From Candidatus Iainarchaeum sp. (lineage in GTDB: Archaea; Iainarchaeota; Iainarchaeia; Iainarchaeales; JAZDDZ01), in NCBI GenBank assembly GCA_043809245.1, contig JAZDDZ010000047.1, positions 32,001 to 96,000 of the forward strand: a stretch of 64,000 bases of DNA, given 5' to 3'. Position 1 is the first letter of the stretch. Every line of letters starts with the position of its first letter. Shown here one piece after another: positions 3,477 through 63,580 of the stretch. Below the pieces are notes generated by a model. It saw nothing but the letters and a program-made list of their open reading frames with translations, had not been told where the DNA came from and ran no database searches. The translations under genes were made by a program, and so were the position numbers.

Positions 3477-3519
3477 AACGGGGCGTCGAACCGCCCGCAG
3501 CGGAATTGGTTATGTAGAA
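3477..3519 (+). repeat. 43-bp site copy 3 (contains CCGCAGCGG)
   Basis: AACGGGGCG...CCGCAGCGGAATTGGTTATGTAGAA. Confidence 0.8.
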
Positions 3520-22474: not shown

Positions 22475-22584
22475 TGGCGGGCGGGGAGGGATTTGAACCC
22501 TCGACCTACAGCTTAGGAGGCTTGCAAGAAATGCAGAAAAAACTGTCACCTCATGTTGCCCTATCCAGGCTAGGCTACCCGCCC
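22475..22584 (-). tRNA. tRNA-Arg(CCT) with 32-nt non-canonical intron (22522-22553) at position 29/30; CCA encoded
   Basis: Stems GGGCGGG/CCCGCCC, ACAGC/GCTGT, GAGGG-TTCAAAT-CCCTC; full BHB: AGG/CCT, GCAA/TTGC, GAGGTG/CATTTC with CAT and AAG bulges. Confidence 0.92.
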
Positions 22585-23510: not shown

Positions 23511-23583
23511 AAAAAAAGTTAAATTTTAGAGTATATATTAGTTTCTGGACCTCATTTCCTCTGCCAGCCAAAGGTGCAACCAT

Positions 23584-31936: not shown

Positions 31937-32008
31937 GCCGCGGTAGCACAACGGCAATGCAGCGCACTCGTAATGCGCAGACTGGGGGTTCGATTCCCCC
32001 CCGCGGCT
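31937..32008 (+). tRNA. tRNA-Thr(CGT), intronless
   Basis: GCCGCGG/CCGCGGC, GCGCA-CTCGTAA-TGCGC, GGGGG-TTCGATT-CCCCC, T discriminator. Confidence 0.95.
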
Positions 32009-32082
32009 TTTTCTCTGCTTTTACCTTGTGCCCTGCCAGTTCAGAGACAAAGAATAAAAATTGATTGCTCCTTTTTTATAAT

Positions 32083-51202: not shown

Positions 51203-51220
51203 TGGGCACGGGCGGATTTG
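51203..51220 (-). pseudogene. Orphan tRNA 3'-terminal fragment (CAAATCCGCCCGTGCCCA)
   Basis: T-loop/T-stem/acceptor 3' strand; 51201-51220 matches 52355-52374 at 15/20 nt. Confidence 0.65.
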
Positions 51221-51287
51221 GCAGCGGCAACTCACTGTGTTTGCGGAGATTTAAATATAAAAAAGCCGAATATTTAATAGTGGTTAA

Positions 51288-52436
51288 ATGGAAGATAAAA
51301 GGCTGAAATTTCAGCCCGGCAAGCAGAGGGCTTTGTTGGAGTTATTTTTTTACAAGCACGGTTTCACCCAAAGAGAATTAGCCGGAAGATTAGGGGTATC
51401 AAAAGGCACAATAGCAGCATATTTCACGGAGAAAAACAACCTATTGCTTTCAACTTTCCAAAAGCTTGAATCAATTGATCCCGCTGTAAAAGGATATGAA
51501 AAATTCATAGAAAAAGAATTGCCTCTCGGTTGGGGCGCAAAAAAGGGCGGTATCGAAAGGGCAAAACTTATTCCAAACAAGAAAACCTATTATGAAGGTA
51601 TAAGGCATATAAAAAAATTGAAAGAATTAGCTAACGCTAGGAAAGAAAAAGAAAAAATAGAGAATCACCCTTTAGTTGAGGAGCTAAAGAAGGCTAATGT
51701 TGATTTGGAAGCCGTACTGGCAGTTTGCCTTTTAACGGATGGCTCACTCTGCATTAAAGGAAAAAATCTTAGGATTAGTTACACAACTAAAGACCATATT
51801 CTAGAAAAGCTGCTTTTTTCAATGATGAACGAACTGTCAGCCAGGGTTCCAGGAATTGGTTTTTCACAAAGTGCTAATACCGTAAGGGTGAGTGATGACG
51901 CGCTAGCGAAAAAATTACTCAACCTCAGCCCGAATTTCAAAACAAGCCCAAGCAGACATGAGACCAACGAGGATTATCTTAAAGAACCGCAGCCAACCAT
52001 ACGCTTTCTTTCAAAATCCAATCAACAGACAAAAAAATGGGCTTTGAGGTTTGCATTCACTGCGGACGGCTACATCAGCAAGGCGGCAAATGGAAAAACA
52101 GAATTGGGGCTCTCCTGTTATCACACGAATCTTGCAATTGAATGGAAACAGATTATAGAAGAATTTGGCTTATCCTGCACGCTTGCCCAAAACAAAAATT
52201 CTTGGTGCGGCATATCTGGAATCAGAATTCAAAACATGGATTCTATTGGAAAATTTTTTCAGCTTGGCGGGTTCATAGATGGAGTTAAAATATCCAATAA
52301 AAGCAAAAAATTCAGGGGGCTGGCAAAAAACGAGCTGTTGACACAGATTGTGGAAATGGGAAAGGGAGGACTCGAACCTCCGACCCCCCGGTTATCAGCC
52401 GGATGCGCTAGCCACTGCGCCACATTCCCAAAATAA
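51288..52436 (+). CDS. Free-standing HTH + LAGLIDADG endonuclease-like protein reading through antisense tRNA-Ile
   Basis: XRE-like FTQRELAGRLGVS; LAVCLLTDG and LRFAFTADG. Confidence 0.8.
   Translation: MEDKRLKFQPGKQRALLELFFYKHGFTQRELAGRLGVSKGTIAAYFTEKNNLLLSTFQKLESIDPAVKGYEKFIEKELPLGWGAKKGGIERAKLIPNKKTYYEGIRHIKKLKELANARKEKEKIENHPLVEELKKANVDLEAVLAVCLLTDGSLCIKGKNLRISYTTKDHILEKLLFSMMNELSARVPGIGFSQSANTVRVSDDALAKKLLNLSPNFKTSPSRHETNEDYLKEPQPTIRFLSKSNQQTKKWALRFAFTADGYISKAANGKTELGLSCYHTNLAIEWKQIIEEFGLSCTLAQNKNSWCGISGIRIQNMDSIGKFFQLGGFIDGVKISNKSKKFRGLAKNELLTQIVEMGKGGLEPPTPRLSAGCASHCATFPK
52357..52429 (-). tRNA. tRNA-Ile(GAT), intronless; U6-U67 acceptor mismatch
   Basis: GGGAATG/CTTTCCC, TCCGG-CTGATAA-CCGGG, GGAGG-TTCGAGT-CCTCC. 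Confidence 0.93.
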
Positions 52437-52541
52437 AGCAAACAAAACGAGCAACAAAGAAATTCCGTAAAAAAAGGGTTTTAAACCCTCGCTACGACAA
52501 TAACAAATCCAGTTAAAAAAGGCTTAAAAACGGTATTTTTG

Positions 52542-52556
52542 TTGCCGCAGCGGCAA
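52542..52556. repeat. Palindrome TTGCCGC-A-GCGGCAA
   Basis: Recurrent motif (also 3495, 55838, 62406; half or variant at 51221, 23554). Confidence 0.75.
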
Positions 52557-52602
52557 TCTACTCCCCCGAAAACTGCTTAAAAGACAAAACAAGAATCATT
52601 AC

Positions 52603-53547
52603 ATGAAGTTCTCCATTTTTGATGTAGATAACCAATGGCTTGCAGAAAAAATCTGCATTGATGGAATAAACCAAGAAGCTAAAGACATTATAAAAAGTTT
52701 GGGCGGACCATCAAAAACCTGCAAACTTTTAAACTGCAAATATACGCGATTAAAAGAATGGTCTAACGGCAGGTCGCCCATACCTTTACATGTTTTGCTA
52801 AAAACGCTTAATGCATGCGCCGACAGTTTTAAGGAAAAAATCAAAAACAAGATTGACTCAAAAGAAATTAACCTCAAGGCACAATACTCGCCGCACAAAG
52901 TAAAATTTCCAAAGAAAATGACTCCTAACTTGGCTTACATAACAGGAGTAATTTTAGGGGACGGACATCTAGCCAGCAGCAAAGATAATGAAAAGGGAAA
53001 CTGGGCAATATCTGTTTGCTTTGACAATTTAATGCATCTCAAGGTCTACAATCAATATATTAAGGAAATATTCGGCATCGAGCCTAAATATTATTTTTGC
53101 CAAAAGAAGAATTATTATGTTTCCTATTTTGCATCATTGACTGTCCACTGGTTTTTAAGGAATTTCCTCGAAATTCCAAATGGTAATAAAAGCAGCCTAA
53201 TCCAAATGCCCGAAGTAATTGCCAATGGAGATGAAAAAATAATTTCAGCCTTCATTAGCGGGCTATTTGATTCCGATGGCACAATAACCAAAAACGGGGA
53301 ACTTAAATTTGCAAGCACAAGCGAAAGAATTGTACACCAGGTTAAGGCTGCGCTAGCTTGTTTCTCAATTAAAAGCTATCATTCAAAATGGCTTAAATCG
53401 GAAAAATACAAAATGCTTCACACAATCAGAATAGGCAAGGAATCAATTCAATCATTCGAGAAAACAATCGGATTTAAGCATCCAAGGAAAAAGCAGCTAT
53501 TAAAAATGTTTTCAAATAAGACTTTAGTTAATAGCCCCGTCGTCTAG
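52603..53547 (+). CDS. Free-standing HTH + LAGLIDADG endonuclease-like protein
   Basis: LAYITGVILGDG and FISGLFDSDG; HTH ...W.NGRSPIP; stop codon lies within first 15 nt of tRNA-Gln. Confidence 0.88.
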   Translation: MKFSIFDVDNQWLAEKICIDGINQEAKDIIKSLGGPSKTCKLLNCKYTRLKEWSNGRSPIPLHVLLKTLNACADSFKEKIKNKIDSKEINLKAQYSPHKVKFPKKMTPNLAYITGVILGDGHLASSKDNEKGNWAISVCFDNLMHLKVYNQYIKEIFGIEPKYYFCQKKNYYVSYFASLTVHWFLRNFLEIPNGNKSSLIQMPEVIANGDEKIISAFISGLFDSDGTITKNGELKFASTSERIVHQVKAALACFSIKSYHSKWLKSEKYKMLHTIRIGKESIQSFEKTIGFKHPRKKQLLKMFSNKTLVNSPVV

Positions 53548-53651
53548 CGGCCAAAGCAATAAACGTATTTTCGTTAAAATTATGGTTGTTGCTGCCGAAA
53601 GGATGGCAGGCTCTGGACCTGCGGACAGGAGTTCGAATCTCCTCGGGGCTA
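53533..53651 (+). tRNA. tRNA-Gln(CTG) with 46-nt D-loop intron (53554-53599)
   Basis: AGCCCCG/CGGGGCT, GCAGG-CTCTGGA-CCTGC, AGGAG-TTCGAAT-CTCCT; BHB-like CGGC/GCCG helix, CAA and AAA bulges, AGCAA/TTGCT. Confidence 0.92.
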
Positions 53652-53667
53652 TTATCCTTTTTATTTA

Positions 53668-53752
53668 AAATAAAAAAAGAAAAAGCAGCCCCTTTTTTTT
53701 GGGGCTTTGTTTTTTGCGTTTACACGATTTCGAATTGCACGCTGGCTGTCGC
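53668..53752. repeat. Direct repeat of SIMPL gene 3' end and terminator-like region (partner 54512-54597)
   Basis: Non-coding part essentially identical; coding part ATASVQFEIV* vs ATVSVQFEIV* with mostly synonymous differences. Confidence 0.9.
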
Positions 53753-53822
53753 TTTGAAAGGCAAAAAGGTTAAAAACACTATCTGCACTAATATTAGTGT
53801 AATCACTAGGGGGGTTTTTTGT

Positions 53823-54062
53823 ATGGCTAATGCAACATTAACGCTCGCTATTCCTGAAAAACTTAAGAAGGATATTAGGGAGTTAAAGGAAATCAATTGG
53901 TCCGAGGAAACAAGGTCTTTTTTGGAGGACAGGGTTGAAAGGCTCAAGGCTTTGAGGACACTGGATGAAATCCTGAAGGGCAGCAGGTTAACTGAAAAGG
54001 ACATTGAGGAATTGGGCGCAAAAATAAAGCAGGGAATAGCCAAAGCGCATGAAAGGAAATGA
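53823..54062 (+). CDS. VapB-like RHH antitoxin
   Basis: TLTLAIP..LK, INWSE..R, S.LTE.DI. Confidence 0.85.
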   Translation: MANATLTLAIPEKLKKDIRELKEINWSEETRSFLEDRVERLKALRTLDEILKGSRLTEKDIEELGAKIKQGIAKAHERK

Positions 54063-54066
54063 TTGA

Positions 54067-54501
54067 ATGCAGCCAATTGCATTAATCGCTGACACAAACG
54101 CCTTGCTTTCAGCGCTGCTAAAAGACAATTTGTCAAGAAAAATTTTTTTAAACCCGAAAGTGAAGCTTTCCTCGCCACAGCACATGAACGAAGAAGTCAA
54201 CAGGCACGCAGAAGAATTAGCCAAAAGAATCGGCATAACGCAAAAAGAGTTCGTTCACGCATTCGAATTGCTTTTAGAAAAATCAGGGCTTGAAATTATT
54301 GCGGAAAAACAATACGAATCCCTTAAGCCAATGGCATTGGAATTATGCCCTGAGGGGCACAAGGACGACTGGCCTTTCCTCGCCTTGGCTTTAAAGCAAA
54401 ACTGCGCTTTATGGTCAAACGATAAAGCGCTCAAAAAACAATCAACAATTGAAGTACATTCAACATTTGAATTAAAGCAAAAACTCGGAAAACTGTTATA
54501 G
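54067..54501 (+). CDS. VapC-like PIN toxin
   Basis: IADTNALLSAL, DDWPFLALAL, LWSNDK.L. Confidence 0.88.
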   Translation: MQPIALIADTNALLSALLKDNLSRKIFLNPKVKLSSPQHMNEEVNRHAEELAKRIGITQKEFVHAFELLLEKSGLEIIAEKQYESLKPMALELCPEGHKDDWPFLALALKQNCALWSNDKALKKQSTIEVHSTFELKQKLGKLL

Positions 54502-54564
54502 CGCTGCATTGAAATAAAAAAAAGAAAAAGCAGCCCCTTTTTTTTGGGGCTTTGTTTTTTGCGT

Positions 54565-55449
54565 TTACACGATTTCAAACTGTACGCTGACCGTTGCGCT
54601 GTATTCTATGTCGCCTGGCGTGATTGGCGTTGGCGCTGACGCGGCACCTTCCGCTACTGCGTCCAAGGCGTAGTTTCTGTACATTGGCACTACATAGTTT
54701 GAGCTTTCGCTTGCGCTGAAAACCTGCCCCACGCCTATTCCTAAACCGGAGGCAATGCTTTGCGCTTTGACTTTTGCATTGGCAGCTGCTTCCTGTAAAG
54801 CCTGTGTTTTTAGCTGTGCTTCAACTGCTTTTGAAAGCGCGAAGGTAACTCCTGAAACCCTGTTTGCCCCTGCCTGAACCGCTGCGTCAATAACGCTTCC
54901 TGTTTTTGAAAGGTCTTTGACTGTCACCTGAATGCTGTTCGTTGTCCTGTAACCGACTGACTCGGATTTTCGGAGCGTTGAATTGTATTCAAAGTCCTCG
55001 CTTAAATTATAGGAAGTCGTTTCAATGTCGTCTTCCGCTATTCCCGCGTTCTTTAAAGCAGTCATGACTTTGCCAGCCAAAACAGCGTTGTCACTCTGGC
55101 TTTTTGAAGCGCTTTTGTCAAGCGTTTCAATGCTCAGGTAAATCAATGCTTCATCCGGTGCAGCTGTCTTTGTGATGGTGCCTGAAACAGAGAGCAGCCT
55201 TTTCTGGTTGCCTGAATCATCTGCCGCAAAGCTGATTACTCCCTCGCTTGCAGGCATTACTGCGCCTTCATTTGTTGAAGTGGTGCCCTGGCTTAAATAG
55301 CTTGGAAGCTGGACTGCGAGTTGCTTGTTTTCGCCTGAATTATCCGTGTTGGTTAAGGCGTTAAAGTTAAAGCCGATAACCAGTACAAGCACTGCAATGA
55401 CAACTGCTGCCGCAATTATAACCACATTTTTTGAATCCATTCTTTTCAC
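54565..55449 (-). CDS. SIMPL (DUF541) domain protein
   Basis: SVSG......PD.A, VIDAAV.AGAN.V.GV.F, AL..A...AK.KA, PI.PG. Confidence 0.9.
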   Translation of the reverse strand: MKRMDSKNVVIIAAAVVIAVLVLVIGFNFNALTNTDNSGENKQLAVQLPSYLSQGTTSTNEGAVMPASEGVISFAADDSGNQKRLLSVSGTITKTAAPDEALIYLSIETLDKSASKSQSDNAVLAGKVMTALKNAGIAEDDIETTSYNLSEDFEYNSTLRKSESVGYRTTNSIQVTVKDLSKTGSVIDAAVQAGANRVSGVTFALSKAVEAQLKTQALQEAAANAKVKAQSIASGLGIGVGQVFSASESSNYVVPMYRNYALDAVAEGAASAPTPITPGDIEYSATVSVQFEIV

Positions 55450-55579
55450 CTCCCTTTGCGTTTTTTTCTATAAACCCTTTGTGGCTGAACTTCCTTTAAA
55501 TATCTTTGTTTTAATGAGGGAAAAGGCTAACCAAGGGCTTTAAATTGCTTAGGCAAAAAATAATCTATTGGTGTAATTA

Positions 55580-55837
55580 ATGGGTTTGCTGGATTTTTTG
55601 GGCAAAAAAAAAGATGAAAGCAGTGAAGCAGAAAACGCAAAGGAAGCCAAAGCGGCAAAGGAATCAAAAGAGGCAAAAAAGGAAGCCGCAAAAGAAGACG
55701 CTGCCTCTGACGCAAAGTATGAGGGCAAGGAATGCTCGATGTGCGGCGGCATGGGCGCTGAAAAAAAATGGATGGGGCAATACTGGCACAAAAAATGCCT
55801 TAGGTCGATGAAGAAAGGCGCGCGAAAAATGATTTGA
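55580..55837 (+). CDS. Small Zn-finger protein
   Basis: C..CG.....KW.GQYWHKKC. Confidence 0.6.
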   Translation: MGLLDFLGKKKDESSEAENAKEAKAAKESKEAKKEAAKEDAASDAKYEGKECSMCGGMGAEKKWMGQYWHKKCLRSMKKGARKMI

Positions 55838-55850
55838 TTCCGCAGCGGAA
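55838..55850. repeat. Palindrome TTCCGC-A-GCGGAA
   Basis: Immediately after upstream stop codon, about 17 bp before TATTTAAA. Confidence 0.7.
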
Positions 55851-55914
55851 ACGCACCCTGAAAAGCTATTTAAACAGCCCGAAGCCAACTTTTTCTGGAA
55901 GCAGTGGTGGCAGG

Positions 55915-56337
55915 GTGCAGAGGATTTATTTGGATTCAAATATTTTTATCGCTTATATCAGGAGCGATATGGGCAAGCCGTTCAAGCTGATGTTCAAGGA
56001 TGTTGAGGATTTCTTTGACTGCTGCCCGAATAGGTTCGTTCTTGTTTTGTCCGAATTTTTTATTGAAGAAGTCGAAAAAAAAGTGCACTATTCAAAAAGC
56101 ATGGTTGGAGAATTCTTTAAAGATTACAAAATTTCAACTGAATTTATTGAAACAACCAAAATTGAAAAGAAATTGGCTCCCGAGTTTTTCAAAAAAGGGC
56201 TGCACGCTGGCGATGCATTGCATGCTGCTTTTGCAATAAATTCAAAATGTGATTTTCTTTTGACTTTCAACATTAAAGATTTTAAGCGACTGGAAAACAG
56301 GATTAAGTTAAGAGAGCCAAAAGAACTAGTCGAGTGA
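55915..56337 (+). CDS. PIN-domain toxin (paralog of 50180)
   Basis: IYLDSNIFI, DALHAAFA, LTFNIKDF; GTG start inferred. Confidence 0.85.
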   Translation: MQRIYLDSNIFIAYIRSDMGKPFKLMFKDVEDFFDCCPNRFVLVLSEFFIEEVEKKVHYSKSMVGEFFKDYKISTEFIETTKIEKKLAPEFFKKGLHAGDALHAAFAINSKCDFLLTFNIKDFKRLENRIKLREPKELVE

Positions 56338-56601
56338 AAAACCCTTTTTCTTCATGAACTCCTTCGCCATTTTATCCCTTTCTTCCCTTGTGAGAAGCTC
56401 CCCGTTCCAGCCGTTTTTCAGCGCATTGTCGCGGATTTCCCTCAGCATCTTCCTGACCTTTGAGCGCCTGAACTCCAAAACCTTGCTTCTAACGGCATCC
56501 CTGATGAACTCGTTCCTAGAATTGTGAAGCTTCTCGGATTTGACGATTTTGTCAACCTCCTTAATCAAGGCAGGCTCCATGTTCATTACATACTGCTGCA
56601 T
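56326..56601 (-). CDS. RHH antitoxin (paralog of 49903), convergent
   Basis: SRNEFIRDAVRSK, GWNG...ER.K.A..F...KGF. Confidence 0.8.
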   Translation of the reverse strand: MQQYVMNMEPALIKEVDKIVKSEKLHNSRNEFIRDAVRSKVLEFRRSKVRKMLREIRDNALKNGWNGELLTREERDKMAKEFMKKKGFSLD

Positions 56602-56655
56602 AAAAATCACGCTAATATTAGAGTTAATATTAGTGTTTTTATATGTTTCGGCGGA

Positions 56656-57012
56656 CTATTTTTTCTTTGCCCTTCCGTATTTGTCCTCGAACCTTTTGAT
56701 GTCGTTCTCTTCGAATTTTCCGAAGGAAATCTCCAAAACCATTGCCTCTTTGGAGGAATTGTTTTGAATTCTGTGCCTTGCCCCCTTTGGAATGAAAATG
56801 CTCTGCAGTTTTTTCAGCAGGGTTTTTTTGCTTCCAACCGTTACTGTAATCCCTTCGGTTAACGCAGCCCATTGCTCTGAGCGCTTTTTATGCGATTGAA
56901 GGGAGAGGATTTGCTTTGGCTTGACTGTTAAAATTTTTACGGTTGTTTTTTCATTCAAAGTGAAGCGCCTGAAATTCCCCCAGGGCCTTTTTTCAAAAAA
57001 AGTTTTACCCAA
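56656..57012 (-). CDS. Cupin, mannose-6-phosphate isomerase type II C-terminal-like
   Basis: RPWG, LSLQSH..RSE.W, HRI.N, EDDI.RFEDKYGR-like end. Confidence 0.85.
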   Translation of the reverse strand: MGKTFFEKRPWGNFRRFTLNEKTTVKILTVKPKQILSLQSHKKRSEQWAALTEGITVTVGSKKTLLKKLQSIFIPKGARHRIQNNSSKEAMVLEISFGKFEENDIKRFEDKYGRAKKK

Positions 57013-57016
57013 GCTA

Positions 57017-58924
57017 TCACTCTTTCAATAATTTCCCAATTTCTTGTTTTAAGGCTTTGCTTATCGCGTCACCGGATGCTTTTCCGCGCAGTTGCTTCAT
57101 TGCATCGCCCATTAAGGCGGATAATGCTCCCGAACCTTTGGCTTTCACCATTGAAGCGTTTTTTGCGGCAATTTCCGCAATAATTTTCTGAACTTCCCCT
57201 TCATCTGCGCCCTCAATTTTAAGTTCACCCAAAATTTCTTCAAGGAATTTCTGCGGTGCGCTGCCCCAGTGCTTTAAGACAGCGAGAAGCACTTCCCTTG
57301 TGATTTTCTTTTCCTTCAAGGCAAGAAGCGCTGCCTCAAGCATTTCATCGCTTAAAGCGTCAACGTTTGCCTTTTCGCGCTTGAGCTGCGTCAGGCCTTC
57401 AAGCAAAAGCACAGCAGTCGGAACAGCCTCAAATCCTTTTCCAACAAGGTGCTCAAAAAAGCGCGCAAAATTGCTTGTGGCCATTTCCTTTGCAAGCTTT
57501 TCGCTTAAGCCGAATTTTTCAATGTAAAGTTTAATTCGCTCTTTTTCGCTTGAAGGCAAATGCTTTTTTATTTCTTCAAGCATTCCAGCGCTTAATTTTA
57601 TTGGCGCCAAATCGGTTTCAGGGTACATTCTTGCGGCTCCGGGAAGTGGGCGCGAGTACTCCGTGTTTCCATCAGCCAAGGCGTTGCGTGTTTCTTCTGG
57701 AACTCCTTTCAGGCACTGCTGCGCCCTTTCAATTACCGCATTGAATACATGAACCGCTTTCTGCTGTTCAGCTACAACAATTACAAAGGCATCGTTTGCA
57801 TCAAAACCGCTTTTTTTCCTTAAAGCCTCTTCAACTGAAAAGACTTCTGTCTGCGTTATGCCATAATTCGGGAGTTCATCTGAGTGAAAGATTCCCTTCA
57901 AGCCGGCTTTTGCCTTCACGTGCGCTGCAAACTCCGAGCCAAGCCTTTTCCCGGGCTGCAGTTCTTTTCCGATAATTCCCTTAAAGCCAGCGAGCTTCAT
58001 TGCATAAGACGCTTTTCCTTTCGTGATTTTGCAATCGGATTTGTCAAGGATTTTTGAAACTTCAATGAAATCCATTTTCGCAATCTTTTCCTTTGAAGCC
58101 TGCCTTTTTTCCAGAGCCCATTTCACTTCCACTAACTTCAATTGCCTTTCCACTTCGCGCTGAACATACAAGTCAATCAAGTCCAGTTCCTGCACGCCCT
58201 TAATTTCAACGCGCGCTCCGCCGCGGATTGAAACATTCAAGTCCTGCCTAATTGTGCCCAGGCCGCGCTTCACTCTTCCAGTCAGGCGGAAAATTGTGCC
58301 GATTGCACGCGCAGCTTCCTTTGCTTCCTTTGGCGAGGAAATGCCAGGCGCGGTTGCAAGCTCTATCAACGGAATCCCCAAGCGGTCAAGCCTGTAAAAA
58401 ATTTCATTATCGGTTTTCTTTGTGGGCCTTGCAGCGTCCTCTTCCAATGCAATTGTCTGCACGCCCAATTCTTTTCCGCTTTCCAGCCTTATTTTTCCGC
58501 CTGTTGCAACAAGCGCGGTTCTCTGAAAACCCGAGGTATTGGAACCGTCAATCACTGCTTTTCTCATAACAAATATTTCATCCATTACATCCGCGCCAAG
58601 CATGAGCGAGATTTCAAGCACTGTTTTTAGCGCATCTTTGTCGGCTGGCTTTACTGGCTCTTCGTCCAGTTCAATCAGGCAATTGGTGTCCTTGTATGCC
58701 TCGTAAACAAATGTAATGCCTTTAGCCGCTGCTTCTAGAGCAGCCGCATCATATTCCCCTAACTCTGATGCAACCGCGCGCAGCTGCCTTTTAACCAAAA
58801 GATGCGGTTTGTCTTCGCGTAAAATGCTTGGGCACCTGCAGAACAGTTTGCCGGATTCAAGCTGTTGGTGCACTTCCAAGCCGCATTTCAAGCCCAATTG
58901 TTTGAAGTCAAGGTCCATCAGCAC
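57017..58924 (-). CDS. gatE: Glu-tRNA(Gln) amidotransferase subunit E
   Basis: GLE.HQQL...KLFC.CP, IDGSNTSGFQRT, RGLGTIRQD.N.SI, RPLPGAARMYPETD. Confidence 0.95.
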   Translation of the reverse strand: MLMDLDFKQLGLKCGLEVHQQLESGKLFCRCPSILREDKPHLLVKRQLRAVASELGEYDAAALEAAAKGITFVYEAYKDTNCLIELDEEPVKPADKDALKTVLEISLMLGADVMDEIFVMRKAVIDGSNTSGFQRTALVATGGKIRLESGKELGVQTIALEEDAARPTKKTDNEIFYRLDRLGIPLIELATAPGISSPKEAKEAARAIGTIFRLTGRVKRGLGTIRQDLNVSIRGGARVEIKGVQELDLIDLYVQREVERQLKLVEVKWALEKRQASKEKIAKMDFIEVSKILDKSDCKITKGKASYAMKLAGFKGIIGKELQPGKRLGSEFAAHVKAKAGLKGIFHSDELPNYGITQTEVFSVEEALRKKSGFDANDAFVIVVAEQQKAVHVFNAVIERAQQCLKGVPEETRNALADGNTEYSRPLPGAARMYPETDLAPIKLSAGMLEEIKKHLPSSEKERIKLYIEKFGLSEKLAKEMATSNFARFFEHLVGKGFEAVPTAVLLLEGLTQLKREKANVDALSDEMLEAALLALKEKKITREVLLAVLKHWGSAPQKFLEEILGELKIEGADEGEVQKIIAEIAAKNASMVKAKGSGALSALMGDAMKQLRGKASGDAISKALKQEIGKLLKE

Positions 58925-58974
58925 ACCAAAAGAAAGGTGAACAAAAAGGGTTTTAAATGGCTATTTGCAGCCTA

Positions 58975-59949
58975 TTAAAAGTATTTTATTTTGTGCACTT
59001 TGTGGAACAGGAAGTAATCGTAGTCCTTCACTTTTCCGGGGAATTTTGCGCTGAATTTTTTGACAAAGCGCTCCATTTCCTCGGGCCTTTCAGCCAGGAT
59101 TTCAATTTCCAAGTCTGCGAAGCTGATTGACTTGTCGATGTAGATTGTTGAAGGCTCCGCGAGGGCAAAGGAAACCATTTCAGCGTATTTGTCCAGGTCA
59201 TTTAACTGAAAATTTATCTTGTACATTGCGAGCCCCATTTTCTCCAGGTTCAGCCTTGCCCTGAATCCTTTAATAATTCCGTTTTTTTTCAGGTTTTTCA
59301 TCAGGAGCTTTATGCTTGAAACGGAAATGCCTGTTTTCTTTGCGAGTTCAACAGTAGGCAGCCTTGCGTTTTCGCTTAAGGCGGAGAGGAGCTTTTTTTC
59401 CGAATCAGAAATCGAAATCGAGCCAAATGTTTCCCCCACAACCTGCACCGGCCTATCAAGGATTTTTTCAGGCACAAGGAATGCCGCGGCACAGTCATGC
59501 ACTTTCGTGTAAGGGCAAACCACGCTTTTAAGCATAAATTTTTTGTATTTAGAGGTTATTTTTTCCCAGAATTGCTCAAACTCATATATGTTCTTCATGT
59601 AGGAGACAAAGCCGAAATTGAATTCCCCTGAAATGCTGCCAACCCACCAAGTGAATGGGCTTGAAGTAATTGCTTCAACGAATCCTTTTTCCTCCTCTAC
59701 CGTATCAAACCTTACCCTCAGGTAAATCCCGATTCCCTGGAAGCCAAGCAAAGGCTTGTCAATCACTGTATAAAAAGAAACAATGAATTCTTCCCTTAGA
59801 AGCCTGTTAATGCGGTAATTTACCACATTTTTATCCATTGCCATTTTTTTTGCAATCTGCGAGTTTGACTGCCTTGAATTGCAGTCAAGCTCGAAAAGAA
59901 TAAGCCTGTCCTTTTCATCCAAACCACCAAACTTTGCCTGTTTAGCCAT
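58975..59949 (-). CDS. Tandem (double) Lrp/AsnC regulator
   Basis: Two units: LDEKD..IL.EL..NSR and E..LL..L.ENAR....ELA. Confidence 0.85.
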   Translation of the reverse strand: MAKQAKFGGLDEKDRLILFELDCNSRQSNSQIAKKMAMDKNVVNYRINRLLREEFIVSFYTVIDKPLLGFQGIGIYLRVRFDTVEEEKGFVEAITSSPFTWWVGSISGEFNFGFVSYMKNIYEFEQFWEKITSKYKKFMLKSVVCPYTKVHDCAAAFLVPEKILDRPVQVVGETFGSISISDSEKKLLSALSENARLPTVELAKKTGISVSSIKLLMKNLKKNGIIKGFRARLNLEKMGLAMYKINFQLNDLDKYAEMVSFALAEPSTIYIDKSISFADLEIEILAERPEEMERFVKKFSAKFPGKVKDYDYFLFHKVHKIKYF

Positions 59950-60134
59950 ATTTAATCATATAGCTCAAAATAGCATAAAAATATATCTGTTTGAACAAAA
60001 AATAGTACTTAATTTTTATTAAGTTGAAATGATGCTATTTATTTGTGGTGTTATAAAAAAGAAAAAAAACAAGGCCAGTCTTCCGAAGCATTTGTTTAAC
60101 TGCTTCAGCAAGTTTTGAGGAAAGGCATAAAACT

Positions 60135-61004
60135 ATGCAGCAGAAAAAGTTAGCCTCAGCCATTAGGCGCGAGGCAAAAAAAGGGAAAGCAGTTGTGCTT
60201 TGCTCCGGCGGAGTTGACAGCACTGTTTGCGCAGTGCTTGCAAAAAATGCCTTGGGCAGCAAAGCGGTTTTTTATTTCATTGATTCAGGTTTCCAGCGGA
60301 AATTTGAAGCCCAAAAAGCTGAAAAAAATCTGGAAAAACTTGGAATCACGCTAAAAATTTTTAATGCAGGGCATTGCTTTTCACAGCTGAAAAAAAGCAG
60401 GGCAAATTCAGTTGAAAGAAGGGCGCTTTCCCTGGCTGGTTTTTCCCGCGCGGTTGAATTGATTTCAAAAAAAGAGAAATGCCGGGCATTTATTTTTGGG
60501 ACAACCCAAGATGATTTGGCTGCGTCGGGAAAACAGTCAGGCGCGAATAAAAGCGGGTTCACGATTATTGAGCCGCTTAAATGCCTGGAAAAAAAACAGG
60601 TGCGCGGGCTTGCGGAACAACTGGGCATTCCAAAAAAAATTATTCACGCACAGCACTTTCCTGGGCCTGGGCTTTCATTGAGGGTTTTAGGCAGGCTGGA
60701 TGGCAGAAACATCGCGTTGGCACAGGAACTTCACGCGTTTTTTGAAAAGAAAAAGAATTGGCTTGTCGGGAAAAAGGGGGATTCAATCTTTTTTCCTTTT
60801 GTTATCCCTGCAAATGAAAATGGGAAAAAGTGGGTTGGGATTAGGGCACTAAAACAAGTTAACGCAGAAACTGCAATACTGCCGGAATTAAGGTTAGAAA
60901 AACTATGGCTGCTTGCAGCAGGGATATTGGATGAATTTCCCTCGGTTGGAAGAGTGCTTCTGGATATATCCCCAAAACCACCGGCAAAAATGGAGATGCT
61001 TTGA
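60135..61004 (+). CDS. GMP-synthase-B-like PP-loop ATP pyrophosphatase, divergent
   Basis: SGGVDSTV, IEPL..L.K..VR.LA..LG.P, FPGPGL..R, RVL.DIS.KPPA..E. Confidence 0.75.
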   Translation: MQQKKLASAIRREAKKGKAVVLCSGGVDSTVCAVLAKNALGSKAVFYFIDSGFQRKFEAQKAEKNLEKLGITLKIFNAGHCFSQLKKSRANSVERRALSLAGFSRAVELISKKEKCRAFIFGTTQDDLAASGKQSGANKSGFTIIEPLKCLEKKQVRGLAEQLGIPKKIIHAQHFPGPGLSLRVLGRLDGRNIALAQELHAFFEKKKNWLVGKKGDSIFFPFVIPANENGKKWVGIRALKQVNAETAILPELRLEKLWLLAAGILDEFPSVGRVLLDISPKPPAKMEML

Positions 61005-61778
61005 ATGAAAAAAGAAAACAACATCGCTCTAATCTGGGACGTATTACTTCACTTCATGTATCCACAGGAATACGCGGAATCGCTGGCAGAATTCCTGAAG
61101 AAAAAAAAGGCGCACTCGATTCTTGACGCCTCATGCGGCACTGGCTTTCCGTCAATAGAGCTTGCAAAGAAGGGCTTTAATGTAATAGGCGCTGATGCGG
61201 ATGAAAAAATGCTTGAAAGGGCAAAGCAGAAAAGCGTGGAACAATGCGCGAAACTTGAATTCATGAAGGTTGACTGGACAAAACTATCAAAAACATTCAC
61301 GCAAAAATTCGACTGCGTCATGTGCAGGGGAAACTCGCTTCCTTATGCGGCATCGTGGGGAAAAGAGTCACTTGACATCCCAATTGCAAGGAAAAAAATT
61401 GAAAAGGCCGTTGAAAACTTTTATGCGGTTCTGAAAAAAGGCGGCATATGCTATATTGATGCGGCGCCAAAAGTTGATTTCCTCCCGAACCACAAAAAAG
61501 AAGTCATTTTTGACCCGCTTGTGATTGACGGCAAAAGCGTCAGGATGATCCAGCGAATTTACCACGACAACAAGAAGCACATCAGGCACTGGAAACCAAT
61601 TGTTGAAATTACCGCCAATGGCAAAACCAAAACCATGTGGAAAAAATACAAAGGCTATCACTTGGGGCACGATATCCTTGTCTCGCTGATGAAAAAAGCC
61701 GGTTTTTGCAAAGTGGACGAATACGTTGAAATAAAAGGCGAAAAGAATTATGACGTGTTCGTCGGCTACAAGAAATAA
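61005..61778 (+). CDS. Class I SAM methyltransferase (glycine/sarcosine N-methyltransferase-like)
   Basis: ILDASCGTG, FDCV.C.GNSL. Confidence 0.8.
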   Translation: MKKENNIALIWDVLLHFMYPQEYAESLAEFLKKKKAHSILDASCGTGFPSIELAKKGFNVIGADADEKMLERAKQKSVEQCAKLEFMKVDWTKLSKTFTQKFDCVMCRGNSLPYAASWGKESLDIPIARKKIEKAVENFYAVLKKGGICYIDAAPKVDFLPNHKKEVIFDPLVIDGKSVRMIQRIYHDNKKHIRHWKPIVEITANGKTKTMWKKYKGYHLGHDILVSLMKKAGFCKVDEYVEIKGEKNYDVFVGYKK

Positions 61779-62372
61779 TTAAGCGCTTTTTTTCGCAATC
61801 CAGATTCTCTGGAGTGCCGTGAAGTTTGAGAGCACTGCAAGGAAGGCAATAACGTAAACAAGGAATGAAAGGTCAATTGACGCGGCAATGATTCCAGCAA
61901 ACAATAAAATCATTCTCTCAGCCCTCTCCAAAAGACCGCCTTTCAGTTCCTTTTCCACTAATTCTTTTTCTTTTGCCGCAGCCTTAACGTAAGTTGTCAT
62001 CATTGCGCCGAAAAAGTAAAGGAAAAGCCATGCAACAGCCGGAATGAAGAAAAACGGAAGGGAAACGAATAAAAGAGCGAAAACAATTATTGCCTCAATG
62101 TACCTGTCCACAATTGTGTCCAGAAAAGCGCCGAACTTGCTCACTGTGCCTGTAACGCGAGCAACAGAGCCGTCAACAAAGTCAAGGAACGCGGCAACAA
62201 TCAATGAAACCGCGGCAAAAACAAACTGCTGCTGGAAAATGAACCAAAAAGCCGCAATAGCGGGAAGGATTGAGATAAGAGTCCAGGCGTTAGCGCTGAA
62301 GGGGATTTTGCTGAATGCAATGCCTATTTTTACCGACAACTTTTCAAACCTTTCACGGTTCCTGTAAAGCAA
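61779..62372 (-). CDS. CDP-alcohol phosphatidyltransferase (archaetidylinositol-phosphate synthase-like)
   Basis: D..DG..AR......FGAFLD...DR, G..ERAER; near ino1. Confidence 0.88.
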   Translation of the reverse strand: MLYRNRERFEKLSVKIGIAFSKIPFSANAWTLISILPAIAAFWFIFQQQFVFAAVSLIVAAFLDFVDGSVARVTGTVSKFGAFLDTIVDRYIEAIIVFALLFVSLPFFFIPAVAWLFLYFFGAMMTTYVKAAAKEKELVEKELKGGLLERAERMILLFAGIIAASIDLSFLVYVIAFLAVLSNFTALQRIWIAKKSA

Positions 62373-62405
62373 GCATTCACCTTTTATGAGATAATTTTGC
62401 AGTAA

Positions 62406-62418
62406 TTCCGCAGCGGAA
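62406..62418. repeat. Palindrome TTCCGC-A-GCGGAA followed by TACTCCCCC
   Basis: Extended match to 52542-52567. Confidence 0.75.
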
Positions 62419-62500
62419 ATGTACTCCCCCCAAAGCTAAATAAATGCTATTTTTCCAAATTAATAGGAAACAAAGTAGTTAAAATGCTTGGTGATTAAGA

Positions 62501-63580
62501 TTGGAAAATCCTATTTTGACTTATAACGAATTCATAATACATTTCCCATCAATTAAGCCGAAAAGCAAGAGGTTAGCCAACAAACTGTTGCCACTGTATC
62601 CTTCCACTGAACTTGCCCAGATAACTGGCGCCTTGTTGACCGACGGGCATGTCGACTGGTATGTTTCTGACGGCAGTCCGAGAACAAGGAAAATTATTTT
62701 ATACTCAAGCAATGAAGAGGAATGTGAGTGGTTTTCTGGTTTGGTCAAAAAAGTTTTTGCCGTTGAACCAAAAATTACAGCCTATTTGCCAAAATACGGG
62801 CAATTCAAGTTGCAGCCCTACAAAGCGGTCTTAAATAATTCAGTCGTTGCCCAAACAATGATTCTTTTAGGGGTTTGCGCGGGAGACAAAACAAAATGCG
62901 GGTATAAGGTTCCAGAATGGATTCTGAATGGAAACAAGAAGATTAAAGCTGCATTCCTGAAAACTGTTTTTACTTTCGACGGTTCAAAACCATACAAGAG
63001 AAAAAATACGTGGACTATCAGCTATAGCACAACCGTGACAAAAGAAGCCCTGCCTAACGGCTTTTTGCTTTTCAAACAGCTTAACCAACTTTTAAAAGAA
63101 TTCGGCGTAACTTTCAGTTCAATTCCAACAGCACACTTGAAAGAGAATGGGAAATTCATGCTAATATCATCCGCATCATCTAGAGAGTCAATTACTAATT
63201 TTTTACGGAATTTGGGCTATCTTAACGAAAACAAGCAAAGAAGGCTGGCTTACGCGGTTGCTGAAATTTTTAAGCTCGCAAGAATACGCTCTCCAAAAAA
63301 TAACCACTTGTTAAGCAAATTCAAAAAAATTTTTGGAACAGACAAAGAAACAGCTTTTTTTGTTAATAAGCTCCTTAAAACAAAGTATACAAAAAGGCAA
63401 TTTGAGCATTTCCGGAGAAACGAAACAATGGCGCCTTTGGAAATACTTGCCTTAGCGCTGAAAAAAACCAAAACAAAAAATTATTTGCCTGACTGGGCAA
63501 AATTTTTGCACAGCCATTATCTTTCTCTAGTTCCGTTGATGAATTCTTCAACCATTTCTTTGGCTGCAGATGGAGAGTAG
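62501..63580 (+). CDS. Free-standing LAGLIDADG endonuclease-like protein with C-terminal HTH-like segment
   Basis: [12 protein letters not shown] and [10 protein letters not shown]; VP.WI linker. Confidence 0.8.

What the first reader, a model, noticed from the sequence alone, without database searches (positions are those of the whole stretch)
52542..62440. Recurrent palindrome TT(C/G)CGC-A-GCGG(A/C)A at the left edge of inserted modules
Seen by eye: CCGCAGCGG at 52545, 55840, 62408 and 3495, all outside likely coding sequence; a half copy at 51221; a one-mismatch variant on the minus strand at 23554-23564. The 52542 and 62406 copies extend with AT.TACTCCCCC..AA. Five copies lie about 14-20 bp before a TATA-like box and point into a LAGLIDADG or PIN gene, although those proteins are highly divergent. 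Inference: either a shared operator (a host regulon, such as a stress or DNA-damage response, controlling selfish nucleases) or a recombination/insertion-end signature.
Basis: partly seen in the sequence, partly recalled or inferred. Interest (0 to 1): 0.72.

Follow-up and report, generated by a model that had tools for sequence, protein, structure and literature searches.

The report
DNA-repair promoter box shared by selfish nucleases
The repeated palindrome is one local spelling of a short promoter signal that, in this group of tiny uncultured archaea, sits in front of DNA replication and repair genes and has also been taken up by selfish DNA-cutting genes, which suggests a so far undescribed archaeal DNA-repair gene network.

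Summary
The palindrome is real: CCGCAGCGG occurs 4 times in the window against 0.42 expected. It is not the functional unit.

Three of the four copies, plus the "half copy" at 51221, belong to an oriented box of about 20 nt, TT[CT][CG]GCA[GC]CGG[AC]AA[CT]N[CT]ACT[CG]. The box lies 26-32 nt before a TATA box and about 55-65 nt before the start codon. The copy at 3495 is not a member. The variant at 23554 is too decayed for the profile to score.

The genome has 27 such sites. All point into a gene on the same strand, and 22 of 27 lie outside any called ORF.

The genes behind them are:
- the only MCM and RadA found in the assembly, plus SSB, NurA-HerA, RecJ and an Lhr operon
- a Cas4-like nuclease, a repair-type radical SAM protein and a restriction-modification pair
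- a compact PolB-like protein
- 8 free-standing LAGLIDADG genes, 4-5 PIN genes, TnpB and Bro-N

The box core plus TATA occurs in 60 of 196 genomes of the same DPANN order. It sits in front of the same gene classes there.

Best reading: this is the operator or activating site of a DNA-transaction regulon, damage- or replication-linked, that selfish nucleases have joined. It is not an insertion end. The binding protein is unknown.

The parts
51217..51237 (+). Box copy A (TTTGGCAGCGGCAACTCACTG).
   Evidence: nhmmer E 5e-5; sequence read.
51250..51257 (+). TATA box of promoter A (TTTAAATA). The ATG at 51288 lies about 31 nt after its end.
   Evidence: Sequence; geometry.
51288..52436 (+). HTH_3 + LAGLIDADG_3 protein of 382 aa driven by box A. 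Its 3' end overlaps tRNA-Ile (52356-52430, minus strand).
   Evidence: Pfam (L022); tRNA.
52541..52563 (+). Box copy B (GTTGCCGCAGCGGCAATCTACTC).
   Evidence: nhmmer E 1.4e-6; sequence.
52577..52584 (+). TATA box of promoter B (CTTAAAAG). The ATG at 52603 follows, so the mRNA has little or no leader.
   Evidence: Sequence.
52603..53547 (+). Free-standing LAGLIDADG_3 protein of 314 aa driven by box B. It is followed by a 158-aa ORF and a PIN_2 gene (54067-54501).
   Evidence: Pfam (L013).
55838..55858 (+). Box copy C (TTCCGCAGCGGAAACGCACCC). It abuts the stop codon of an 85-aa Cys-rich ORF (55580-55837).
   Evidence: nhmmer E 2.9e-5; sequence.
55868..55876 (+). TATA box of promoter C (TATTTAAAC).
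   Evidence: Sequence.
55915..56337 (+). PIN-domain protein of 140 aa with a GTG start, driven by box C. It is a paralogue of three other box-driven PIN genes elsewhere in the genome.
   Evidence: Pfam (L020); BLAST.
62406..62426 (+). Box copy D (TTCCGCAGCGGAAATGTACTC). This is the best-scoring site in the genome.
   Evidence: nhmmer E 9e-9; sequence.
62438..62445 (+). TATA box of promoter D (TAAATAAA).
   Evidence: Sequence.
62501..63580 (+). LAGLIDADG_3 protein of 359 aa driven by box D. The TTG start is uncertain.
   Evidence: Pfam (L001).
23533..23566 (-). Possible decayed box plus TATA (GCAGAGGAAATGAGGTC ... TAATATAT) before a LAGLIDADG gene (22575-23510, minus strand).
   Evidence: Sequence; Pfam; the profile does not score it.
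3495..3503 (+). Exact CCGCAGCGG that is NOT a family member. It lies between convergent genes, with no ACTC block and no TATA box.

Best explanation
**What it is.** The palindrome is one spelling of an oriented cis-regulatory box of about 20 nt. In this genome the box reads TT[CT][CG]GCA[GC]CGG[AC]AA[CT]N[CT]ACT[CG]. Its order-wide core is CACCGG[AC]A-N4-ACT[CG]. It lies directly upstream of the BRE/TATA element of a defined set of archaeal promoters.

**Who binds it (inferred).** A sequence-specific DNA-binding protein, not yet identified, binds the box and co-regulates these promoters. Because the box sits just upstream of BRE, it most likely helps or blocks recruitment of TBP and TFB.

**What it controls.** The regulon is a DNA-transaction regulon. 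Its members are:
- a compact PolB-like polymerase homologue, the most widely conserved member
- RadA, NurA-HerA, Lhr and other DEAD helicases, SSB, MCM and RecJ
- Cas4-like nucleases, a repair-type radical SAM protein and DNA methylases

The regulon is therefore linked to DNA damage, to replication, or to both.

**Selfish genes.** Free-standing LAGLIDADG homing-endonuclease genes, TnpB, a PIN subfamily, restriction-modification genes and a phage-type Bro-N gene carry the same box. They would therefore be expressed together with the host recombination machinery on which homing and transposition depend.

**Shown and inferred.** The motif, its geometry, its gene set and its conservation are shown. 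Protein binding, the direction of regulation and the inducing signal are inferred.
For: **1. Over-representation.**
- The strict pattern GCASCGGMARYNYACTS gives 20 hits in the genome. The reversed control gives 0.
- The iterated nhmmer profile finds 27 sites with E < 0.01.

**2. Promoter geometry.**
- 22 of 27 cores lie outside any greedy ORF of 60 aa or more, although 91% of the genome lies in such ORFs. The other 5 overlap only crude ORF extensions.
- All 27 point at a same-strand ORF.
- A TATA-like hexamer was found 26-32 nt after GCA at 24 of 27 sites; the search pattern used missed the other 3.
- The start codon lies at +61 to +74 from model position 1 at most sites.

**3. Functional coherence in G000** (28 first genes).
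- Host DNA genes: RadA with an intein, MCM, SSB, NurA, RecJ_archaeal (514 bits against a cut-off of 360), an N6/N4 methylase, a PD-(D/E)XK Cas4-like nuclease, and a radical SAM + HhH protein (TIGR03916-like).
- Others: a PolB-like protein, TnpB, Bro-N (2), LAGLIDADG-type proteins (8), PIN (4) and 4 unknowns.
- None is a metabolic or translation gene.
- Operon partners are HerA, an Lhr helicase, a BsaWI-type endonuclease, an IS200 transposase and a fifth PIN.
- MCM and bona fide RadA are single-copy in the assembly.

**4. Conservation across the order.**
- Box core plus TATA occurs in 60 of 196 genomes of the order. Sixteen families are listed with a match. The reversed control gives only single hits in a few genomes.
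- The same geometry holds, with ATG at +52 to +59.
- The same gene classes follow in 58 downstream proteins from 21 other genomes: free-standing LAGLIDADG 18, PolB-like 7, TnpB 5, NurA 3, helicases 4, Bro-N 4, SSB 2, methylases 2, and MCM, RadA, rSAM-HhH, PD-(D/E)XK, PIN and integrase once each. The remaining 7 are 5 proteins with no Pfam family, an intein-bearing GTPase and a small wHTH protein.

**5. Orthologous promoters keep the box.**
- ssb in 5 genomes.
- Bro-N in about 11 genomes, with family-specific spellings.
- The PolB-like gene in 8 genomes of 8 families.
- One horizontally spread homing-endonuclease gene in 4 families.

**6. The PolB-like member.**
- The AlphaFold2 model has pLDDT 84 and pTM 0.81.
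- Foldseek gives 182 PDB hits with E <= 1e-3. The top hits are all family-B polymerases.
- This parallels the damage-inducible PolB2/Dpo2 of Sulfolobus (abstract of PMC7390963).

**7. Basal factors.** Only one TFB and one full TBP were found. A dedicated factor is therefore more likely than an alternative basal factor.
Against: - No binding protein is identified.
  - Bro-N was not found with this query in the box-positive genomes G016 (99% complete), G027 and G040.
  - The conserved HTH-LAGLIDADG protein L025 is patchy, found in 3 of 41 genomes.
  - Both Orc1/Cdc6 paralogues occur in nearly all of the 41 genomes searched, with or without the box; three genomes gave a single match.
  - The neighbours of box sites include no obvious regulator.
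- There are no expression data. No sequencing run was listed.
- The profile was built from its own hits and is circular. The independent support is the reversed-pattern control and the cross-genome conservation.
- ORF calls are crude.
- Many LAGLIDADG and PIN members are paralogues, or move horizontally together with their promoter. Part of the copy number therefore reflects common descent and not independent recruitment.
- The canonical PolB, orc1 and many other replication genes have no detected box.
- ssb and mcm orthologues lack the box in many families.
- MCM membership fits a replication or cell-cycle regulon at least as well as a damage regulon.
Confidence: 0.78

Rival explanations
1. 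The box is a recombination or insertion-end signature: the terminal sequence or attachment site of mobile gene cassettes.
For: - In the window it sits at the 5' edge of accessory LAGLIDADG and PIN genes. These are packed between housekeeping genes and next to tRNA genes.
- One homing-endonuclease gene with its box occurs at 55-62% identity in four families, which suggests that the unit moves.
- An integrase and IS200/TnpB genes are among the box-driven genes.
Against: - There is only one copy per gene, always 5' of the gene and always oriented towards it. It keeps a fixed distance to the TATA box and ATG. No second end was found on either strand.
- It precedes the only MCM and RadA genes found in the assembly, as well as SSB, NurA-HerA and RecJ.
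- It precedes orthologous core genes in other families.
- Similarity stops at the box and TATA; the upstream flanks are unrelated.
Confidence: 0.04
2. The box is a general promoter-strength element read by the basal machinery (TFB, TFE or RNA polymerase). On this view it is an extended BRE or UP-like element with no dedicated regulator or signal.
For: - It directly adjoins BRE/TATA.
- The BRE and TATA elements next to it look near-consensus.
- No regulator was found.
Against: - Only about 27 of roughly 1600 genes carry it, and they form one functional class. No ribosomal, metabolic or other highly expressed gene appears among the first genes.
- The spacing from the ACTC block to the TATA box varies by about 6 nt, which is unlike a basal element.
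- A single TFB and TBP were found.
Confidence: 0.1
3. The promoter similarity reflects common descent only. Paralogous selfish genes duplicated or transferred together with their promoters, and the resemblance to core-gene promoters is coincidental.
For: - The four PIN genes are paralogues at 31-52% identity, and several LAGLIDADG genes are related to one another.
- The orthologues of homing-endonuclease gene L025 carry homologous promoters.
Against: - Unrelated protein families share the box: RadA, MCM, SSB, NurA, RecJ, PolB-like, rSAM, methylase, TnpB and Bro-N.
- The box persists in front of orthologues across families that have diverged to 30-65% protein identity, while the surrounding non-coding sequence has not been kept.
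Confidence: 0.05

Closest known systems
Sulfolobales DNA-damage response: the Orc1-2 regulator with a conserved hexanucleotide promoter motif (abstracts of PMC6061795 and PMC5817253)
   Same: - Both are archaeal regulons marked by a short promoter-proximal motif and linked to DNA transactions.
- In both, a non-canonical family-B polymerase is a hallmark member. Dpo2/PolB2 is the only damage-inducible polymerase in S. islandicus (abstract of PMC7390963).
- A second Orc1/Cdc6 paralogue exists here too.
   Different: - The lineage differs: DPANN here, Thermoproteota there.
- The motif is about 20 nt, oriented and upstream of BRE, and bears no resemblance to a hexanucleotide.
- This regulon contains RadA, NurA-HerA, MCM, SSB and RecJ together with many selfish nucleases.
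- No link between the Orc1/Cdc6 paralogue and the box was found. That paralogue occurs in nearly all of the 41 genomes searched, with or without the box, and its G000 promoter has no box.
Bacterial SOS regulon (LexA box)
   Same: - One operator is shared by recA-type recombinase, ssb, helicase and alternative-polymerase genes.
- Mobile elements, toxins and prophage genes have joined the regulon.
- These statements rest on established knowledge recalled from memory, not on any call.
   Different: - The promoter architecture is archaeal, and the site lies upstream of BRE/TATA instead of overlapping a sigma-70 promoter.
- LexA and RecA-mediated cleavage are not known in archaea.
- The replicative helicase MCM is included here.
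Eukaryotic G1/S regulons (E2F; MBF/SBF)
   Same: The gene set matches: MCM, RPA/SSB, Rad51/RadA, the Cdc45/RecJ homologue and helicases under one promoter element. This comparison is recalled knowledge.
   Different: - No E2F_TDP domain was found in the genome.
- There is no evidence for a structured cell cycle in this lineage.
- The motifs are unrelated.
Archaeal upstream activating sites (Ptr2, TFB-RF1 type)
   Same: The position immediately upstream of BRE, and the single orientation relative to the TATA box, match. This comparison is recalled knowledge.
   Different: - Those sites serve one or a few promoters.
- Here a regulon of about 27 promoters is conserved across an order, and the factor is unknown.

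Membership tests
Transcription-factor operator / regulon box at archaeal promoters | Statistical over-representation of the motif | tested here: met
   20 hits against 0 for the reversed pattern in G000. 27 profile hits with E < 0.01. In the window, 4 against 0.42 expected.
Transcription-factor operator / regulon box at archaeal promoters | Intergenic location with fixed orientation and distance to the TATA box and gene start | tested here: met
   22 of 27 cores lie outside ORFs, although 91% of the genome is in called ORFs. All are oriented towards a gene. A TATA-like hexamer was found at +26 to +32 at 24 of 27 sites. The ATG lies at about +55 to +65. The same geometry holds in 21 other genomes.
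Transcription-factor operator / regulon box at archaeal promoters | Functionally coherent downstream genes | tested here: met
   DNA replication, repair, recombination, nuclease and mobile-element genes follow the box. No metabolic gene is a first gene.
Transcription-factor operator / regulon box at archaeal promoters | Conservation upstream of orthologous genes in other genomes | tested here: met
   ssb in 5 genomes. Bro-N in about 11. The PolB-like gene in 8 families. NurA, MCM, RadA and rSAM also keep it.
Transcription-factor operator / regulon box at archaeal promoters | A protein that binds the box, and box-dependent change of expression | not testable with these tools
   No protein-DNA tool was available and no RNA run was listed. 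Candidate regulators were checked by distribution only.
Mobile-element end / attachment site | Paired ends (two copies flanking the element, direct or inverted), with the junction coinciding with the repeat | tested here: not met
   The profile search on both strands finds one copy per gene, on the 5' side only. The box also precedes single-copy core genes. Comparison with empty alleles was not possible, because no close strain or sequencing run was available.
Origin recognition boxes (ORB, Orc1/Cdc6 sites) | Clustered copies in an intergenic region next to orc1/cdc6, with sequence like the local ORB | tested here: not met
   Sites are dispersed over 15 contigs. The region upstream of orc1 (C44) shows GTGGAA..TTCCAC and no box.
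Sulfolobales Orc1-2 DNA-damage regulon | Hexanucleotide motif in the promoters of damage-response genes, and dependence on the Orc1-2 paralogue | tested here: inconclusive
   The motif here is different and longer. A second Orc1/Cdc6 paralogue is present in nearly all of the 41 genomes searched, whether or not they have the box. Dependence on it could not be tested.
Family-B DNA polymerase (for the ~500-aa regulon member) | PolB fold | tested here: met
   AlphaFold2 pLDDT 84. Foldseek top hits are all PolB, with E down to 5e-9, probability 1.0 and TMq 0.43-0.53.
Family-B DNA polymerase (for the ~500-aa regulon member) | Sequence-family membership and catalytic motifs (DxxSLYPS, YxDTDS; motifs recalled from memory) | tested here: not met
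   There is no Pfam or NCBIfam hit. A profile search against PDB sequences gives only weak PolB hits, E 0.007-0.95. The invariant residues in the 8-sequence alignment include no DTD-type motif, but they do include a Cys cluster: C258, C260, C261 and C360.

The most novel reading that the evidence does not exclude
An order of DPANN archaea has a dedicated regulon for DNA repair and replication, comparable to SOS or E2F. It is defined by a CACCGG[AC]A-N4-ACTC box upstream of BRE/TATA. Its hallmark gene is a compact, unannotated PolB-like protein. Homing endonucleases (free-standing and, through their host genes, intein-borne), TnpB, PIN and restriction-modification genes have plugged into this regulon. 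On this reading, selfish DNA cutters are expressed exactly when the host's recombination machinery is expressed. This would be the second archaeal DNA-damage-type regulon after that of the Sulfolobales, and the first case of a homing-endonuclease population wired into a host repair regulon.
Probability: 0.45. Interest if true: 0.85.

Novelty: new variant of a known kind. Interest (0 to 1): 0.74.

Why it matters
**An open question in archaeal biology.** How archaea coordinate DNA repair and replication genes is largely unsettled. The listings of my literature searches showed only one worked-out regulatory system, Orc1-2 in the Sulfolobales. They showed no description of this box or regulon.

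**What this finding offers.**
- A concrete, testable cis-element with a conserved target list in an uncultured DPANN lineage.
- A new PolB-like protein as its core member.
- An evolutionary strategy in which homing endonucleases, TnpB and toxin genes adopt the host's repair-regulon promoter.

**Practical use.**
- The box provides bait for identifying the regulator.
- It gives a way to predict DNA-repair genes, including unannotated ones, in genomes that cannot be cultured.

Tried and rejected
- **ORB / Orc1 site idea.** The region upstream of orc1 and a repeat search showed no resemblance to the box. The second Orc1/Cdc6 paralogue occurs in nearly all of the 41 genomes searched, with or without the box, and its G000 promoter has no box. 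Only G016 has an inverted box between a TATA-like element and that gene's start.
- **Alternative basal factor.** One TFB and one full TBP were found, plus a 95-aa half-TBP-like ORF.
- **E2F-like factor.** No E2F_TDP domain was found.
- **Bro-N as regulator.** It is box-driven in many genomes, but it was not found with this query in box-positive G016, G027 and G040.
- **Conserved HTH-LAGLIDADG protein L025 as a domesticated, WhiA-like regulator.** Its patchy distribution (3 of 41 genomes) fits a mobile homing-endonuclease gene.
- **The small wHTH gene behind the single box hit in G001.** A methylase-like gene start follows it, so it looks like the controller of a restriction-modification system. 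Its G000 homologue has no box.
- **Neighbours and divergent genes of box sites.** None is an obvious regulator.
- **MCM promoters of 79 distant relatives.** No box was found.
- **Sequencing runs.** None was listed, and no RNA holder was listed. No expression or empty-allele test was therefore possible.
- **RNA hairpin reading of the palindrome.** A 4-bp stem with a 1-nt loop cannot fold, and the box lies upstream of the TATA box, so it is not transcribed from that promoter.

Full report
**Observation**

CCGCAGCGG occurs at 3495, 52545, 55840 and 62408. That is 4 matches against 0.42 expected; 1 of 100 shuffles reached 4. The 13-mer TTSCGCAGCGGMA with up to 1 mismatch matches at three places (the call lists 5 matches, two sites scoring on both strands) against 0.67 expected.

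Reading the copies side by side shows that three of them share much more than the palindrome. They continue with (A/C)A(A/G)YNYAC(T/C)C, a C-rich stretch and a purine-rich BRE-like GAAAG(C). A TATA box follows, then a start codon about 25-40 nt later. The copy at 3495 has none of this and lies between two convergent ORFs.

**Genome-wide family**

- The window is C47:32001-96000 of a 1.48-Mb assembly with 44% GC, 55 contigs and 91.8% completeness.
- CCGCWGCGG occurs 22 times in the assembly, and 9 of these share the extended motif.
- An nhmmer profile built from those 9 and iterated once finds 27 sites with E < 0.01, plus one weaker site with E 0.37.
- Among the 27, positions G0 C1 A2, G5 G6, A8 and C14 are invariant.
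- Position 3 is G in 15 sites and C in 11. The heptamer reads GCAGCGG 12 times, GCACCGG 11 times, and other spellings 4 times.
- The conserved unit is therefore an oriented box, TT[CT][CG]GCA[GC]CGG[AC]AA[CT]N[CT]ACT[CG].
- The left arm that makes the palindrome (TTCCG) is only weakly conserved, at about 1 bit per position.
- The minus-strand variant near 23554 gets no profile hit. It does have a TATA box and a LAGLIDADG gene behind it.

**Promoter geometry**

- 22 of 27 cores lie outside every greedy ORF of 60 aa or more, although 91% of the genome lies inside such ORFs. The other five overlap only upstream extensions produced by my crude ORF caller.
- All 27 point into a same-strand ORF.
- A TATA-like hexamer was found 26-32 nt after GCA at 24 of 27 sites; the search pattern used missed the other three.
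- Most start codons lie at 61-74 nt from model position 1. Many transcripts would therefore have little or no leader. A few (ssb, the nurA operon, L017) have a Shine-Dalgarno-like GAGGTG leader.
- The distance from ACTC to the TATA box varies from about 10 to 16 nt. This argues for a separate bound factor and against an extension of BRE.
- Only one TFB gene and one full TBP gene were found.

**What the box drives in this genome**

Pfam and NCBIfam scans of the 28 first genes and BLAST among them give the following.

- Host DNA genes: RadA (with an intein), MCM, an SSB-type OB-fold protein, NurA and RecJ_archaeal (514 bits against a cut-off of 360).
- Further DNA enzymes: an N6/N4 DNA methylase, a PD-(D/E)XK Cas4-like nuclease, and a radical SAM + HhH protein resembling TIGR03916 ('putative DNA modification/repair radical SAM', 292 bits, below its cut-off).
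- Mobile or phage-type genes: TnpB, and two Bro-N genes, one of them a fragment.
- LAGLIDADG-type proteins: eight in all. Five are identified by Pfam and two by BLAST to those. L019 is identified by its LLGDGG and IIDEGH motifs read by eye, and it also has an ArsR-type HTH by Pfam.
- PIN: four paralogous proteins.
- A 508-aa protein without any family.
- Four other unknowns. One of them, L015, looks RelE/ParE-like by eye only.

Operon partners add more:
- HerA, with two inteins
- an Lhr helicase, with an intein
- a BsaWI-type restriction endonuclease
- an IS200-type transposase
- a fifth PIN gene

No first gene is metabolic or translational. The MCM and the bona fide RadA are the only ones found in the assembly. 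The canonical PolB has no box. Only 5 of 23 PIN stretches in the genome have the box. The box therefore marks a subfamily, not PIN genes in general.

**Conservation**

The nearest named relatives by MCM are MAGs labelled Micrarchaeota, Iainarchaeum or 'archaeon', at 64-66% identity. The phylum as held here has 215 species in one class. The organism is therefore a DPANN archaeon, probably Iainarchaeota. That assignment is an inference.

*Pattern counts.*
- The strict 17-mer pattern gives 20 hits in G000 and 0 for its reversed control. It gives 1-9 hits in 8 of 40 same-order genomes.
- The relaxed core plus TATA (CCGGMARNNNACTS-N7-17-TTWAWA) matches in 60 of 196 genomes of the order, and in 18 of 55 high-quality genomes. 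Sixteen families are listed with a match. Reversed controls give only scattered single hits.
- It was not found in families f3 (0 of 22), f30 (0 of 18) and f31 (0 of 7).
- Outside the order, 2 of 19 genomes match, one of them no better than its control.
- Families have their own spellings, for example CCGGCAAAACACTC in f11 and CCGGAAACCCACTCT in f21. The GCAGCGG palindrome is a peculiarity of G000.

*Downstream genes in other genomes, first set.* For 25 sites in 8 genomes I scanned 22 downstream ORFs. I left out three sites: one with only 45- and 63-aa ORFs (L108), one with only 53- and 67-aa ORFs (L136), and L110, whose 364-aa ORF I did not submit. The 22 were:
- LAGLIDADG 7
- SSB 2, Bro-N 2, TnpB 2
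- MCM, NurA, rSAM-HhH and a DEAD/ResIII helicase, 1 each
- no Pfam family 5, of which two are PolB-like and one is the orthologue of L017

*Downstream genes in other genomes, second set.* For 40 further sites in 13 genomes I scanned 36 ORFs. Two sites had no ORF and two had only short ORFs. The 36 were:
- free-standing LAGLIDADG 11
- intein-bearing RadA, a DEAD helicase and a GTPase, 1 each
- TnpB 3, NurA 2, other DEAD helicases 2, Bro-N 2, DNA methylases 2
- PD-(D/E)XK, PIN, an integrase and a small wHTH protein, 1 each
- no Pfam family 7, of which five are PolB-like and one is LAGLIDADG-related by BLAST

In these sites the ATG lies at +52 to +59 from CCGG in most cases.

*Orthologous promoters.*
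- ssb keeps the box in G000, G013, G039 and G003, and a degenerate one in G027. In three of these there are extra upstream half boxes. ssb has no box in the other 22 of 27 orthologous loci examined.
- Bro-N keeps a recognisable variant in about 11 of 17 loci.
- No box was found upstream of MCM in 79 more distant loci.

**The hallmark member**

- The ~500-aa unannotated protein is box-driven in 8 genomes of 8 families, at 27-37% identity.
- Its alignment has invariant C258, C260, C261, C360 and H300, and an EPERQFL..W.YFD block.
- The AlphaFold2 model built on that alignment has pLDDT 84 and pTM 0.81.
- Foldseek returns 182 PDB hits with E <= 1e-3. The top hits are all family-B DNA polymerases, including Tgo, KOD, E. 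coli Pol II and Pol epsilon, with E down to 5e-9 and TMq 0.43-0.53.
- Sequence profiles see PolB only weakly, with E 0.007-0.95. The Atlas gave the same lead from a poor model.
- It is thus a compact, highly diverged PolB-like protein. Whether it is active is unknown.
- For comparison, PolB2/Dpo2 is the only damage-inducible polymerase of S. islandicus, and PolB2 proteins had been predicted to be inactive (abstracts of PMC7390963 and PMC8764526; abstract and outline of PMC11791011).

**Selfish genes**

- The genome is rich in LAGLIDADG sequences. There are 29 Pfam stretches, most of them inside ORFs of over 700 aa, which indicates inteins in at least 14 genes.
- Three intein hosts (RadA, HerA, Lhr) are themselves in the regulon.
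- One free-standing HTH-LAGLIDADG gene (L025) is 55-62% identical in four different families, but was found in only 3 of 41 genomes searched. That pattern fits horizontal spread.
- All four of its copies keep a box in the spelling of their host.

The box therefore travels with, or is maintained by, mobile nuclease genes.

**Mechanism**

*Shown:* an oriented box adjoining BRE/TATA; a coherent and conserved gene set.

*Inferred:* a dedicated DNA-binding protein recognises the box.
- A position just upstream of BRE is where archaeal activators act (recalled knowledge). However, the adjoining BRE and TATA elements look strong, which would also suit a repressor.
- I cannot decide the direction of regulation.
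- The signal could be DNA damage, which fits the PolB-like protein, RadA, NurA-HerA, Lhr, the nucleases and the rSAM protein. It could equally be replication or the cell cycle, which fits MCM, RecJ and SSB.

*Regulator candidates tested and not supported:* Bro-N, L025, the Orc1/Cdc6 paralogue, an alternative TFB, E2F, and the neighbouring genes.

**Known versus new**

Four literature searches returned no listed paper describing this box or a DPANN DNA-repair regulon. I looked only at the listings and abstracts of the top hits.

The nearest known system is the Orc1-2 hexanucleotide-motif regulon of the Sulfolobales. It differs in lineage, motif and membership. I therefore class this finding as a new variant of a known kind: a regulon operator.

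**Limits**

- There are no expression or binding data.
- The genome is a MAG.
- ORF calls are crude.
- The profile is circular. The checks on it are the reversed-pattern controls and the cross-genome conservation.
- Related genomes are not independent samples.

Noticed in passing
G000 genome-wide (e.g. C23:24945-27452 RadA, C10:23616-28703 HerA, C42:43707-47882 Lhr; window 72243-72452 = C47:104243-104452 lies outside the window): The 1.48-Mb genome is very rich in inteins. There are 29 LAGLIDADG_3 stretches, most of them inside ORFs of 700-1700 aa, which suggests at least 14 intein-bearing genes.
   Followed up: partly
window 51288-52436 / 52356-52430, and 31937-32008 / 32065-33078: Free-standing LAGLIDADG genes abut tRNA genes. 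The 382-aa ORF overlaps tRNA-Ile on the opposite strand by about 80 nt. Another LAGLIDADG ORF, with no box detected, starts 57 nt after tRNA-Thr.
   Followed up: no
G000 C23:6596-6700, and ssb loci L140, L141, L145, L149: A small ORF of about 30 aa (M..R[LI][VM]RF[IV]E...) with a GAGGTG Shine-Dalgarno-like leader lies between the box promoter and ssb. It is conserved in several families (read by eye).
   Followed up: no
L248 (G149:C3:188149-189990) and L249 (G156:C5:19391-21231): Two genomes have a box+TATA promoter with no ORF of 50 aa or more starting within about 260 nt behind it. The downstream sequences are similar to each other, so this may be a box-driven non-coding RNA.
   Followed up: no
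L273 (G016:C1:1126977-1126993): In G016 an inverted copy of the box lies between a TATA-like element and the start of the second Orc1/Cdc6 paralogue. This was not seen in G000 or in most other genomes.
   Followed up: partly
G000 C49:48908-49111: A 95-aa ORF matches a single TBP repeat (27 bits). It is present in addition to the normal two-repeat TBP.
   Followed up: no
window 55580-55837: An 85-aa ORF with a CxxC-containing C-terminus and no Pfam family ends exactly at box C, upstream of the PIN gene. It may be a partner or antitoxin of that PIN.
   Followed up: no
G000 C8:60765-60835: The promoter of the RelE/ParE-like 132-aa gene (L015) has a second partial box (TTCCGCACCGAA) between the TATA box and the ATG. 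This hints at extra, possibly repressive, occupancy.
   Followed up: no
G000 C48:5475-5723 (L017) and L116 (G025): An 82-aa box-driven protein with no family is 58% identical between two families. It sits upstream of a PIN gene. By eye it looks like a small beta-rich nucleic-acid binder.
   Followed up: no
window 58975-59949 (minus strand): A 324-aa protein with two AsnC/MarR-type winged-helix domains and a weak TFIIE-alpha match lies between the box promoters. No link to the box was tested.
   Followed up: no
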